Shown piece after piece: positions 30,024-31,622 of a DNA stretch of 64,000 nt. The stretch spans positions 140,279 through 204,278 of the forward strand of contig DKRQ01000019.1 in the NCBI GenBank assembly GCA_002472275.1, in the 5' to 3' direction. Below the pieces are notes generated by a model. The model was given only the letters and a program-made list of their open reading frames with translations, was not told the origin of the DNA and made no database searches. A program made the position numbers and the translations under genes. This DNA comes from Bacillales bacterium UBA7278. GTDB taxonomy: Bacteria; Bacillota_I; Bacilli_A; RFN20; CAG-826. Positions within the stretch are counted from its first letter, which is position 1; every line of letters starts with the position of its first letter.

Positions 30024-31622
30024 ATGAATAAAAAAGCTCTTTTGCCAATAACTGCAGCCGCTCTTTTGGCCTTGGCTTCTTGTGGGGGCACCCCTTCTAC
30101 GGACCAGTCTTCCAATTCAGGAGTTGACCCTGCCGGTAGTAGTGGCATTTCCTCTTCGGGAGACGCTTCTTCGGCTTCTTCGGGCGATCCTTCCCCCTCG
30201 CAATCCTCCGATTCTCAAATGGATGAGGGCTTTGAGGAATGGAAAAAGAGCGCTGATGCCGCCGACTATAACGGGGATGGGCAAATCGATGAAAAGGATT
30301 ATGCTGTTTTCCTTTGGCTTGATAGTGACGATGCCGCCGACTATAACGGCGATAGGAAAATCAATTACGTCGACTATTCGCTCCTTCAGGACTTCAACGC
30401 TTGGAAGAAAGGCGAAGACGCAGCCGATTATAATGGCGATTCAAAGATCACTTTTGATGACTATCTCGCCTTCCGCGAATATGCCTTATGGAAAGAATCG
30501 GACAAAGCTGCCGATTTCGACGGGAATGGGGCAATCGATTATGATGACTATCTGATTTATACCCCGTTTGCGAAATGGCTCGATGGAACCGACGCTAGAG
30601 ATGTCAACGGCGATGGTACTATCGGCTACGAAGACTACATTTTGTTGAACGAGTTCAACGCATGGCGTGCCAGCGATGCCGCTCGCGACTATAACGAAGA
30701 CAGGATCATCAACTACGATGACTATCTCATCCACCTCGCTTTCGTGACTTGGAAAAATTCCGACAAGGCGATGGATATCGATAACGACCTGTCAATCACA
30801 TACGCGGATTATGTCGCCTATTTGAAATATGCCGAATGGAAAGACGGGGACGATGCCATCGACCTCAATTCCGACGGAGTAATCGACTATCAGGATTATG
30901 TGATTTTCACCAGCGAAGGCTATCAGAACTACCTGGTCTGGAAGAAATCCGAATGGGCAAAAGACTACGACGAATCTGGTTCTGTCGACGAGGCTGACTA
31001 CGAAATCTACCTTGCGTTTAGAGCGTGGCTAGAAAGCGACGCCGCCGCCGACATCAACAAAGACAGGGTAATTGATTATGCCGACTATGTCGCTAGCCTC
31101 CACCCCGAACTGACCCCATATGAGATTTGGCGTGGTTCTCATAACGCCAAAGACTATGACGGCAATGGGGAAATCAACGAAACCGACTTTGCCATCTTCA
31201 ATTTGATTGGCGATTACCGTGTTTCGCAGCTCCTTGTCGAAGGCGCAAGGCTCTATTTCGCGGATTCGAGGCTTTCGCTCAACGATGTTGCCAAACACAT
31301 CGAAGACGCGGTCATTCGCTTTGATGGAAGCCAAACCAAAGTCGAACTGAGCGGTTATTTCATCGATGCCTTGAGCCAGGCCGATAAGAAGGAAATCGAA
31401 ACCATCGCTGATTCTATTGTCATTTGCGTGGAAACGGCCACCTTAATGACGGTCACCATGAACATTCCGTTCCCGCAGGCCGGCGAACAGGGATTGCCGC
31501 TCACGCTCTACTTCAAATTGAATGAAACGCCATTGGAGTCCACGGTCAAAGTGTCCTTCCCCTATGGCGATTCAACACTGAACACTTTCGTGACATTGAC
31601 CTTGGAAAAAATCGAGCAATGA
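30024..31622 (+). CDS. Lipoprotein with 11 tandem EF-hand/dockerin-like Ca2+-binding repeats
   Basis: RBS ggagg. Signal peptide/lipobox LALASCGG, then an S-rich linker. Eleven D-x-[ND]-x-[DN]-x-x-I-x-x-x-D-[YF] loops. Confidence 0.7.
   Translation: MNKKALLPITAAALLALASCGGTPSTDQSSNSGVDPAGSSGISSSGDASSASSGDPSPSQSSDSQMDEGFEEWKKSADAADYNGDGQIDEKDYAVFLWLDSDDAADYNGDRKINYVDYSLLQDFNAWKKGEDAADYNGDSKITFDDYLAFREYALWKESDKAADFDGNGAIDYDDYLIYTPFAKWLDGTDARDVNGDGTIGYEDYILLNEFNAWRASDAARDYNEDRIINYDDYLIHLAFVTWKNSDKAMDIDNDLSITYADYVAYLKYAEWKDGDDAIDLNSDGVIDYQDYVIFTSEGYQNYLVWKKSEWAKDYDESGSVDEADYEIYLAFRAWLESDAAADINKDRVIDYADYVASLHPELTPYEIWRGSHNAKDYDGNGEINETDFAIFNLIGDYRVSQLLVEGARLYFADSRLSLNDVAKHIEDAVIRFDGSQTKVELSGYFIDALSQADKKEIETIADSIVICVETATLMTVTMNIPFPQAGEQGLPLTLYFKLNETPLESTVKVSFPYGDSTLNTFVTLTLEKIEQ
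30264..31190 (+). repeat. Array of 11 in-frame ~24-28-codon repeats (W-K-x-S-D-A-A-D-Y-N-G-D-x-x-I-x-x-x-D-Y)
   Basis: DYNGDGQIDEKDY, DYNGDRKINYVDY, DYNGDSKITFDDY, DFDGNGAIDYDDY, DVNGDGTIGYEDY, DYNEDRIINYDDY, DIDNDLSITYADY, DLNSDGVIDYQDY, DYDESGSVDEADY, DINKDRVIDYADY, DYDGNGEINETDF. Confidence 0.85.

What the first reader, a model, noticed from the sequence alone, without database searches (positions are those of the whole stretch)
30264..31190. Lipoprotein built from 11 tandem EF-hand/dockerin-like calcium loops
Eleven copies of a ~24-28-residue unit follow each other without other recognisable domains: W-(K/L)-x-S-D-A-A-D-Y-N-G-D-x-x-I-x-x-x-D-Y-x-x-x-x-x-F. Each unit contains a 12-residue DxNxDGxIxxxD Ca2+-binding loop like those of type I dockerins. 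Canonical dockerins have two such loops and dock to cohesins. An 11-loop array anchored by a lipid, after a Ser-rich linker, is unusual. It could be a Ca2+-dependent extended rod, a multivalent docking scaffold or a Ca2+ buffer. No cohesin-like gene is visible nearby. The last ~140 residues (31200-31619) are non-repetitive.
Basis: partly seen in the sequence, partly recalled or inferred. Interest (0 to 1): 0.5.

Follow-up and report, generated by a model that had tools for sequence, protein, structure and literature searches.

The report
Lipoprotein stalk of eleven dockerin-like calcium loops
A surface lipoprotein of an uncultured herbivore-gut bacterium carries eleven consecutive dockerin-type calcium-binding loops that most likely form a calcium-stiffened tether holding a small ligand-binding barrel, an uncharacterised but not unprecedented arrangement.

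Summary
Gene 30024-31622 (+) encodes a 532-aa protein. It has a lipoprotein signal (LASC), a disordered Ser-rich linker, eleven in-register D-x-[DN]-x-[DNS]-x-x-[IV]-x-x-x-D loops and a 138-aa C-terminal domain. The loops sit exactly at 30264-31187, mostly 29 aa apart.

Pfam Dockerin_1 (50 bits) and EF-hand_1 (38 bits) both pass their cut-offs. A profile of repeat pairs matches solved type I dockerins best.

It is not a canonical dockerin. The unit is a single loop plus helix, loop counts are odd, and the cohesin-contact positions vary. No cohesin was found in the 30 window proteins scanned against Pfam.

The protein belongs to an unnamed family, with at least 51 clusters at 50% identity. Members have a lipobox, 1-8 loops and a confidently modelled eight-stranded calycin-like barrel. 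In all six contexts seen, the gene is followed by a conserved ~205-aa two-TM protein.

In a near-identical genome (RpoC 99.4%), the orthologous array carries an ABC substrate-binding domain instead. The array is therefore a portable module.

Best reading: a Ca2+-stabilised stalk or tether for ligand-capturing domains, in a hypervariable surface-protein island between rpoC and rpsL. Ca2+ binding and function are untested. Moderately interesting.

The parts
29961..29969 (+). Poly-G tract (G9) in the putative promoter region, 55-63 nt upstream of the start codon. It lies between TTGAGT and TATCCTAA motifs that are also present upstream of the orthologous gene in L001.
   Evidence: The window and Logan assembly L088 have G9. 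The JGI assembly L087 of the same strain has G8 and is otherwise identical over about 485 nt. The flanking motifs are conserved in L001. Whether this is a sequencing error or phase variation is unresolved.
30014..30018 (+). Ribosome-binding site GGAGG, 5 nt before ATG 30024
   Evidence: Sequence read
30024..30083 (+). Lipoprotein signal peptide, aa 1-20: MNKK n-region, hydrophobic core, lipobox L-A-S-C with Cys20
   Evidence: The same LASC/LTGC/LSSC-type lipoboxes occur in most full-length family members.
30084..30239 (+). Ser-rich, predicted disordered linker (aa 21-72; 18 Ser in 52 residues)
   Evidence: for composition. AlphaFold2 pLDDT is below 50 for residues 1-65.
30240..31205 (+). Array of 11 repeat units (aa 73-394). 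Family consensus: W-[KLR]-x-[SGT]-[DE]-[DE]-A-x-D-[YFL]-[ND]-G-D-[RG]-K-I-[ND]-x-x-D-[YF]-x-[IL]-[YWF]-x-x-[YF]-x-x. Each unit is about 15 non-helical residues, including the 12-residue Ca2+ loop, followed by a helix that has 14 residues in most units.
   Evidence: units and logo; Pfam Dockerin_1, EF-hand_1; DSSP, pLDDT about 85; profile versus solved dockerins; 63-nt DNA repeat family at 30240-31190, copies 62-71% identical to the reference copy.
31206..31622 (+). C-terminal domain of 138 aa (aa 395-532) plus stop codon. It is a small mainly-beta barrel with short helices, of the calycin superfold, and has no Pfam family.
31619..32239 (+). Downstream gene whose start overlaps the stop (ATGA). 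It encodes a 206-aa protein with N- and C-terminal TM helices and an ectodomain of about 120 aa. It is the conserved partner of the barrel-type family members.
   Evidence: Homologues directly follow the family gene in all 5 other contexts, with starts overlapping or within 3 nt of the stop. Identity is 57, 31 and 58% for the three partners in alignment A3, and phmmer E-values for all five range from 2.5e-20 to 8.6e-84. No Pfam hit. The partner is absent where the array carries an SBP instead.

Best explanation
The gene encodes a lipid-anchored surface protein of an uncultured herbivore-gut member of Bacilli. The closest representative genome is a horse-faeces MAG at 65% RpoC identity.

Behind a flexible Ser-rich linker sits an array of eleven single-loop 'F-hand' units, each a dockerin-type 12-residue Ca2+ loop plus an exiting helix. 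I propose that each loop binds one Ca2+ outside the cell. I further propose that the aromatic-rich units (W1, Y/F at loop position 2, I at position 8, Y/F after position 12, Y/F at position 27) pack on one another into a continuous elongated rod.

The rod would act as a modular stalk or tether, not as a cohesin-binding dockerin. It carries a ligand-binding cargo domain. Here the cargo is an eight-stranded calycin-like barrel that works with the translationally coupled two-TM membrane protein encoded next to it. In a sister genome the cargo is an ABC-transporter substrate-binding domain. Both cargo types suggest capture of a ligand at a distance from the membrane and hand-over to a membrane partner.

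Shown: the sequence anatomy, the HMM membership of the loops, the family, the partner synteny, the cargo swap and the fold of the barrel. Inferred: Ca2+ occupancy, rod geometry, the stalk role, and the ligand and partner interaction.
For: - Loops: 11 of 11 keep ligand residues at positions 1, 3, 5 and 12. Dockerin_1 and EF-hand_1 score above their cut-offs. The pair profile matches solved dockerins over both loops.
- Model: pLDDT is about 85 over the array, with helices of mostly 14 residues alternating with 15-residue loops. pTM is low (0.46), as expected for an elongated or flexibly linked molecule.
- Single-loop unit: spacing is a uniform 29 aa and loop counts are odd (11 here). By contrast, EF-hand-pair arrays such as P0042 and P0047 alternate 33/25 or 34/25.
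- Modularity: the family has 1-8 loops in front of the same barrel. In L001 (RpoC 99.4%, EF-G 98.6% identical), the syntenic gene has orthologous repeats 1-5 (86, 66, 52, 66, 59% identity). These are followed by an SBP_bac_8 domain (52 bits) and no TM partner.
- Positional identity: window repeats 8-11 best match repeats 4-7 of P0005, and repeats 10-11 match repeats 6-7 of P0002 and P0006. This indicates an ordered structure rather than a slippery low-complexity spacer.
- Partner: the two-TM gene is conserved in 6 of 6 barrel-type contexts with an overlapping or adjacent start.
- Barrel: the model is confident, and its fold neighbours are small-ligand binders or inhibitors.
Against: - No experiment or coordinate analysis was possible. 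I could not inspect inter-repeat contacts or measure length, so 'rod' rests on sequence pattern and DSSP/pLDDT only.
- A cargo that must meet a membrane partner sits awkwardly with a rigid spacer. The idea needs the Ser-rich linker to supply the flexibility.
- Only one clear alternative cargo (P0001) was found, plus a few unannotated ones (P0089, P0076).
- Ca2+ binding is predicted, not measured.
Confidence: 0.5

Rival explanations
1. Multivalent docking scaffold. Adjacent loop pairs act as five or so genuine dockerins, each recruiting a cohesin-bearing protein to the cell surface, as a kind of inverted scaffoldin.
For: Pfam Dockerin_1 reports 6 stretches above threshold. The pair profile aligns end to end with solved cohesin-binding dockerins. 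Non-cellulosomal dockerins and multi-dockerin proteins exist.
Against: Loop numbers are odd (11 here; commonly 7 or 3 in relatives) and spacing is uniform, so there are no discrete two-loop modules. The inter-loop distance is 5-7 residues shorter than in solved dockerins (alignments). Loop positions 10 and 11, which are the classical Ser-Thr cohesin contacts by established knowledge of type I dockerins, are here Y/E/V/F/I and D/E/A/S/K and poorly conserved. No cohesin family appeared in the 30 window proteins scanned against Pfam. The conserved TM neighbour tracks the barrel, not the repeats.
Confidence: 0.12
2. Variable surface coat or shield protein. The array mainly provides bulk and antigenic diversity at the cell surface, for evasion of phage, protists or host immunity. 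Its expression would be switched by the upstream poly-G tract, by analogy with size- and phase-variable lipoproteins of Mollicutes.
For: The gene lies in an island that is hypervariable between two near-identical genomes. Flanks are 98-99% identical at DNA level, the 505-aa and LRR genes 89.5%, repeats 1-5 only 70%, and the rest is non-homologous. The poly-G tract is G9 versus G8 in two assemblies of the same strain. Neighbouring genes are other Ser-linker lipoproteins with BspA-type LRRs.
Against: Repeats are old and diverged (41-65% DNA identity), so slippage cannot change their number quickly. Repeats keep positional orthology and a strictly conserved Ca-loop and aromatic pattern across the family, which argues for a defined fold and function. 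The conserved cargo domain and partner gene point to a specific activity. The G8/G9 difference may be a homopolymer sequencing error. This reading is compatible with, rather than exclusive of, the stalk model.
Confidence: 0.2
3. Extracellular Ca2+ buffer, store or sensor. The eleven sites sequester Ca2+ at the membrane surface, or switch the protein's conformation in response to Ca2+ concentration.
For: There are eleven intact canonical loops. Bacterial multi-EF-hand proteins exist among the hits, for example P0042 with 40 loops.
Against: By established knowledge, dockerin/EF-type loops bind in the micromolar range, whereas gut lumen Ca2+ is around millimolar. The sites would therefore be constitutively filled, giving a structural rather than regulatory role; this is inference. 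A pure buffer would not need a conserved cargo domain, a partner gene or conserved positional identity of repeats.
Confidence: 0.1
4. Assembly or annotation artefact. The repeat number or the reading frame is not real.
For: Public gene calls disagree on the start: 645 aa in JGI and 467 aa in Logan, against 532 aa here.
Against: The disagreement is explained by the 1-nt poly-G difference upstream and by the choice of start codon. The coding region is identical in an independent assembly. Repeats are too divergent to collapse or expand during assembly. Homologues from other samples have the same architecture.
Confidence: 0.02

Closest known systems
Type I dockerin module (Pfam PF00404; e.g. Clostridium thermocellum Xyn10B dockerin 1OHZ, Acetivibrio cellulolyticus DocCel5 5NRK/5NRM)
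   Same: Both have a 12-residue D-x-[DN]-x-D-G-x-I-x-x-x-D loop with Asp rather than Glu at position 12, followed directly by a helix ('F-hand'). There is no entering E-helix (DSSP). Two adjacent units align with a whole dockerin, and the Pfam score is above cut-off.
   Different: This protein has eleven consecutive single-loop units with a uniform 29-aa period, instead of one duplicated pair. The inter-loop segment is 5-7 residues shorter. A conserved Trp, Ser and Ala-x precede each loop. Cohesin-contact positions 10 and 11 are not Ser-Thr and are variable. The array lies N-terminal, behind a lipid anchor. No cohesin was found.
Canonical EF-hand pairs and bacterial multi-EF-hand proteins (PF00036, PF13499)
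   Same: The loop ligand pattern is the same, and EF-hand_1 and EF-hand_7 score above their cut-offs.
   Different: Position 12 is Asp in all 11 loops. There is no helix-loop-helix pairing into four-helix lobes. Spacing does not alternate as it does in EF-hand-pair arrays such as P0042, P0047 and P0054. Calmodulins match the repeat profile only at E>0.06.
Multi-dockerin / TSP3 repeat regions of large extracellular proteins (metagenomic hits P0049, P0058, P0072; 'Dockerin-type' giant proteins of Omnitrophota, bioRxiv 10.1101/2023.11.21.568195)
   Same: These also have many dockerin-type Ca2+ loops in tandem within cell-surface proteins that are not cellulosomal.
   Different: Those arrays sit in very large multidomain proteins (subtilase, CARDB, PKD, TSP3). 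They lack the W-x-x-S-x-x-A flavour, the lipobox, the calycin-like barrel and the two-TM partner gene.
Thrombospondin type-3 'wire' and other Ca2+-rigidified stalks of adhesins (functional analogy, from general knowledge)
   Same: Contiguous Asp-rich Ca2+ sites are proposed to make an extended extracellular element whose integrity depends on Ca2+.
   Different: There is no sequence relationship. TSP3/TSP3_bac profiles gave no hit at E up to 10. The units here contain a helix.
Calycin-superfold small barrels (lipocalin, FABP, YceI, avidin, serralysin inhibitors) for the C-terminal domain

Membership tests
Type I dockerin (PF00404) | Sequence match to the family profile above the curated threshold | tested here: met
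   Dockerin_1 scores 50 bits against a cut-off of 22.9, E 3.5e-13, with 6 stretches. The repeat-pair profile hits solved dockerins at E 4e-7 to 1e-3.
Type I dockerin (PF00404) | Module built from one duplicated pair of loop-helix segments (about 60-70 aa) that folds as a unit | tested here: not met
   There are 11 units with a uniform 29-aa period. Loop counts are odd in this protein and in many relatives.
Type I dockerin (PF00404) | Ca2+ ligands at loop positions 1, 3, 5, 9 and 12, with Asp at position 12 | tested here: met
   All 11 loops have D at 1, D/N at 3, D/N/S at 5 and D at 12. Position 9 is D/N/T in 10 of 11 loops and G in one. Actual Ca2+ binding was not tested.
Type I dockerin (PF00404) | Conserved cohesin-recognition residues (classically Ser-Thr at loop positions 10 and 11) | tested here: not met
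   Across 104 family units, position 10 is Y/E/V/F/I and position 11 is D/E/A/S/K. Information content is 1.3-1.4 bits.
Type I dockerin (PF00404) | A cognate cohesin module encoded in the same organism | tested here: inconclusive
   No cohesin family appeared in the 30 window proteins scanned against Pfam. The rest of the genome was not available.
Canonical EF-hand (PF00036/PF13499) | Helix-loop-helix with bidentate Glu at loop position 12, paired into two-EF-hand lobes | tested here: not met
   EF-hand_1 and EF-hand_7 pass their cut-offs. However, position 12 is Asp in all 11 loops, about 6 non-helical residues precede each loop, and spacing shows no pairing.
Thrombospondin type-3 / bacterial TSP3 repeat (PF02412/PF18884) | Match to the TSP3 profiles | tested here: not met
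   No TSP3 family was listed even at E up to 10.
Bacterial lipoprotein (Lgt/LspA substrate) | N-terminal signal peptide ending in the lipobox [LVI][ASTVI][GAS]C | tested here: met
   The N-terminus reads MNKKALLPITAAALLALAS-C20. Lipoboxes are present in most full-length relatives. Lipidation itself is not testable here.
Unnamed family: lipobox + dockerin-like repeats + C-terminal barrel + two-TM partner | C-terminal ~140-aa domain homologous across members, and a downstream partner gene | tested here: met
   An iterated profile finds the domain in 51 of 151 representative hits, E 1e-16 to 1e-47. The partner is present in 6 of 6 contexts.
Calycin / lipocalin-like barrels | Eight-stranded up-and-down barrel with family sequence motifs and a ligand pocket | tested here: inconclusive

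The most novel reading that the evidence does not exclude
The gene pair 30024-32239 may define a previously undescribed two-component surface system of uncultured gut Bacilli. In it, a calycin-like ligand-capturing barrel is held on a new type of single-loop, Ca2+-loaded dockerin-derived solenoid and delivers its ligand to a dedicated two-TM membrane protein. The ligand could be, for example, a hydrophobic nutrient such as a lipid, sterol or isoprenoid. The same solenoid would be reused as a 'fishing-line' for ABC substrate-binding proteins. This would also show that the dockerin fold can polymerise into a continuous rod with no role in cohesin binding.
Probability: 0.15. Interest if true: 0.65.

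Novelty: new variant of a known kind. Interest (0 to 1): 0.42.

Why it matters
Dockerins are known almost entirely as paired-loop plugs for cohesins. If the stalk model holds, this family would show the same Ca2+ loop-helix unit reused as a single-unit repeat that builds a long, portable surface tether.

The family also marks out two protein domains with no annotation: the barrel and its membrane partner. These are conserved across many uncultured gut bacteria and sit in a rapidly diversifying surface-protein island. That makes them candidates for nutrient capture or host/phage interaction in organisms that cannot yet be grown.

For protein engineering, a modular Ca2+-dependent rod whose length is set by repeat number would be a useful spacer.

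None of this overturns current understanding. It extends the known non-cellulosomal uses of dockerin-like repeats.

Tried and rejected
- **GTDB species representatives.** A scan with two loop-derived patterns matched 599 stretches, but none was confirmed as a relative. This is not proof of absence, because only two patterns were used.
- **Exact look-up of the 532-aa product.** It is not on record. This was later explained by differing start calls caused by the poly-G indel.
- **Word-indexed search with the 59-column repeat-pair profile.** It returned only 3 short fragments and was unproductive.
- **Foldseek of the full model against the PDB.** There were no hits at E<=0.001.
- **afdb50 library.** It was unavailable, so there is no UniProt-annotated structural neighbour and no taxon list.
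- **phmmer of the repeat region against PDB sequences.** Nothing at E<=0.01.
- **Barrel profile against PDB sequences.** Only a chance-level S-layer hit at E 0.41.
- **Family searches.** Pfam and NCBIfam gave nothing for the barrel or for the partner protein.
- **Fusion-by-deletion idea.** I asked whether the L001 array-SBP gene arose by fusing the array to the window's downstream LRR-SBP gene. This is rejected: BLASTP shows no significant similarity between the two SBP domains.
- **Promoter and terminator scan.** It did no better than shuffled sequence.
- **Literature searches.** They found no description of this family.
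Full report
**1. What is in the sequence**

The credible start is ATG 30024, preceded by GGAGG at 30014-30018. The product is 532 aa and begins MNKKALLPITAAALLALASC, a textbook lipoprotein signal with lipobox L-A-S-C.

Residues 21-72 are Ser-rich (18 of 52 are Ser) and are predicted disordered, with pLDDT below 50.

From W73 onward there are eleven units. The 12-residue loops start at aa 81, 106, 135, 164, 193, 222, 251, 280, 314, 343 and 377, which is nt 30264-31187. 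The period is 29 aa for six of the ten intervals, 25 for the first, and 34 for three near the C-terminal end.

Every loop has D at position 1, D/N at 3, D/N/S at 5, I/V at 8 and D at 12. The loop motif with its trailing aromatic occurs nowhere else in the six-frame translation of the 64-kb window, so chance is excluded.

At DNA level the copies are only 41-65% identical. TRF sees no nucleotide tandem repeat there, and the longest repeat family is 63 nt with copies 62-71% identical to the reference copy. An independent Logan assembly is identical over 8.2 kb. The repeat number is therefore not an assembly artefact.

**2. What the repeats are**

Pfam places the array in Dockerin_1 (50 bits, cut-off 22.9, six stretches), EF-hand_1 (38 bits, cut-off 25.4) and EF-hand_7 (34.7 bits, cut-off 30). 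No thrombospondin-type family appears even at E up to 10.

I built a gapless 59-column profile of adjacent repeat pairs from 52 family segments (A4). Its best matches among all PDB sequences are type I dockerins, aligned across both loops. These include 5NRK/5NRM, 2YIK, 3UL4, 2VN5, 1DAQ and 1OHZ, at E 4e-7 to 6e-3. Calmodulin-type EF-hands reach only E>0.06 and match through a single loop.

AlphaFold2 models the array with pLDDT of about 85. It shows a strict alternation of about 15 non-helical residues (six pre-loop residues plus loop positions 1-9) and a helix that starts at loop position 10 and has 14 residues in most units. This is the dockerin 'F-hand', with no entering helix.

The array nevertheless fails several defining features of a dockerin module:
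- The unit is a single loop-helix repeated with uniform spacing. It is not a duplicated pair.
- Loop counts are odd: 11 here, and commonly 7 or 3 in relatives.
- The inter-loop segment is 5-7 residues shorter than in solved dockerins.
- The classical cohesin-contact positions 10 and 11 are variable, Y/E/V/F/I and D/E/A/S/K.
- None of the 30 window proteins scanned against Pfam has a cohesin domain.

The family-wide logo is W-[KLR]-x-[SGT]-[DE]-[DE]-A-x-D-[YFL]-[ND]-G-D-[RG]-K-I-[ND]-x-x-D-[YF]-x-[IL]-[YWF]-x-x-[YF]-x-x. The many conserved aromatics per 29 residues suggest that neighbouring units share a hydrophobic core. That is an inference, because I could not obtain model coordinates.

**3. 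The family and its partner gene**

The word-indexed search found only four relatives. An exhaustive HMMER search of 1.84 billion cluster representatives found 13 hits at E<=1e-30, 50 at E<=1e-10 and at least 150 at E<=1e-3.

An iterated profile of the C-terminal 140 residues is present in 51 of the 151 sequences in hand. These are mostly 250-430-aa proteins with a lipobox, 1-8 loops spaced 29, 32 or 34 aa apart, and a tail of 135-150 aa. Two members (P0013, P0021) carry the tail domain twice. The window protein has the longest array in this set.

In all six genomic contexts available, the family gene is followed by a gene for a protein of about 201-212 aa. The contexts are the window, L082, L083, L084, L085 and L086. 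The downstream start overlaps the stop, or lies within 3 nt of it (ATGA in the window). The encoded protein has N- and C-terminal TM helices and an ectodomain of about 120 aa. Identity to the window copy is 57, 31 and 58% for the three partners in alignment A3. phmmer E-values for all five partners range from 2.5e-20 to 8.6e-84. It has no Pfam family.

**4. The array is a portable module in a hypervariable island**

The gene lies between rpoC and rpsL, among other Ser-linker lipoproteins. These are a 505-aa M6-like protein, a BspA-LRR protein and an LRR-SBP fusion.

A contig from another metagenome (L001) is almost the same organism. RpoC is 99.4% identical, EF-G 98.6%, the 505-aa protein 94.5% and the LRR protein 89.5%. 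At the same position, however, it has a single 811-aa gene, P0001. P0001 has the same signal peptide and eight repeats. Its repeats 1-5 are positional orthologues of the window's, at 86, 66, 52, 66 and 59% identity. These are followed by an SBP_bac_8 substrate-binding domain (52 bits; UgpB-like in the PDB) instead of the barrel, and there is no TM partner.

DNA identity falls from 98-99% in the flanks to 89.5% across the 505-aa and LRR genes. It is 70% over repeats 1-5 and undetectable for the rest of the island.

The window's repeats 8-11 best match repeats 4-7 of the seven-loop relative P0005, and repeats 10-11 also match repeats 6-7 of P0002 and P0006. The extra repeats in the middle are therefore old, diverged duplications.

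The partner gene travels with the barrel, not with the repeats. This argues against the partner being a repeat receptor.

**5. Mechanism proposed**

The best-supported reading (confidence about 0.5) is a Ca2+-loaded elongated rod that serves as a stalk or tether behind a flexible linker. The rod presents a ligand-binding cargo that co-operates with a membrane protein: the barrel with the two-TM partner, or an SBP with its ABC permease.

Shown: anatomy, HMM membership, family, synteny, cargo swap and barrel fold. Inferred: Ca2+ occupancy, rod geometry, tether function and ligand.

Rivals, which overlap in part with this reading:
- A multivalent dockerin scaffold (0.12). It is disfavoured by the odd loop counts, the variable contact residues and the absence of a cohesin.
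- A variable surface coat, possibly phase-switched (0.2). It is compatible with the stalk model.
- A Ca2+ buffer or sensor (0.1).
- An artefact (0.02).

**6. Comparison with what is known, and novelty**

Non-cellulosomal dockerin-like repeats and proteins with many dockerin or EF-hand loops are already known. In my own hits, P0042 has 40 loops behind a lipobox, P0054 has 27 and P0063 has 66. P0049, P0058 and P0072 have 3-8 Dockerin_1 stretches next to subtilase, CARDB or PKD domains. Omnitrophota 'Dockerin-type' giant proteins are reported to carry large numbers of dockerin and TSP3 repeats.

The following features appear undescribed:
- The single-loop 29-aa unit with its W/S/A signature.
- Its use as an N-terminal module of small lipoproteins.
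- The unannotated barrel.
- The coupled two-TM gene.

I rate this a new variant of a known kind, with moderate interest (0.42).

The organism is an uncultured member of Bacilli from herbivore gut. Its best RpoC match among 185,579 species representatives is 65%, to a horse-faeces MAG, followed by other gut 'Bacilli' and 'Mycoplasma sp.' MAGs at about 53%. It is an anaerobe with an [FeFe]-hydrogenase.

Noticed in passing
window 29961-29969: There is a poly-G tract upstream of the lipoprotein gene. It is G9 in the window and in Logan assembly L088, but G8 in the JGI assembly L087 of the same strain, which is otherwise identical. It lies between TTGAGT and TATCCTAA motifs that are also conserved upstream of the orthologous gene in L001. 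It may be a phase-variable promoter spacer, or it may be a homopolymer sequencing error. The indel makes the JGI gene call fuse an upstream ORF (645 aa).
   Followed up: partly
window 31619-32239: This is a conserved unannotated gene for a 206-aa protein with TM helices at both ends. Its start overlaps the stop of the repeat gene (ATGA). Homologues follow the family gene in all five other contexts examined. The exact protein (P0154) is on record in NCBI, JGI, ENA, Logan and GEM without a name.
   Followed up: yes
window 24607-34887 versus L001: The stretch between rpoC and rpsL is a hypervariable surface-lipoprotein island. Against a genome with 99.4% identical RpoC, the flanks are 98-99% identical at DNA level, the 505-aa and LRR genes 89.5%, and repeats 1-5 of the array 70%. 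Nothing else aligns: L001 has one array-SBP gene where the window has three genes.
   Followed up: yes
window 24612-25908 (- strand): An HTH_3 (Xre-type) gene and a DUF3990 gene overlap each other and sit directly after rpoC. This pair is absent from the otherwise syntenic L001, so it looks like a small inserted two-gene module, possibly toxin-antitoxin-like.
   Followed up: partly
window 26008-27525 and 27522-29567: A 505-aa protein has no Pfam hit and only a sub-threshold match to the M6 metalloprotease domain (TIGR03296, 59 bits against a cut-off of 110.8). It overlaps by 4 nt the start of a 681-aa BspA-type LRR lipoprotein. The pair is conserved in L001.
   Followed up: partly
window 32265-34814: An 849-aa lipoprotein fuses BspA-type leucine-rich repeats (LRR_5) to an ABC substrate-binding domain (SBP_bac_8). 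This is an unusual SBP with an N-terminal LRR module, parallel in logic to the array-SBP fusion P0001.
   Followed up: no
P0013 (564 aa) and P0021 (429 aa), family members from the representative search: These two relatives carry the C-terminal barrel domain twice. In P0013 a second set of repeats lies between the two copies, which shows that repeat-barrel cassettes can be concatenated.
   Followed up: partly
window 53228-57876: Three AAA-family ATPase genes of 425, 394 and 523 aa lie within a 4.6-kb + strand stretch, separated only by a short 195-aa ORF. Their function is unknown.
   Followed up: no
window 40047-50481 (- strand): This is a run of large genes with few or no Pfam hits. It includes a 571-aa protein with a C-terminal trypsin-like domain, an ABC ATPase and a 621-aa protein with a Big_3 domain. 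It may be another surface or secretion cluster.
   Followed up: no
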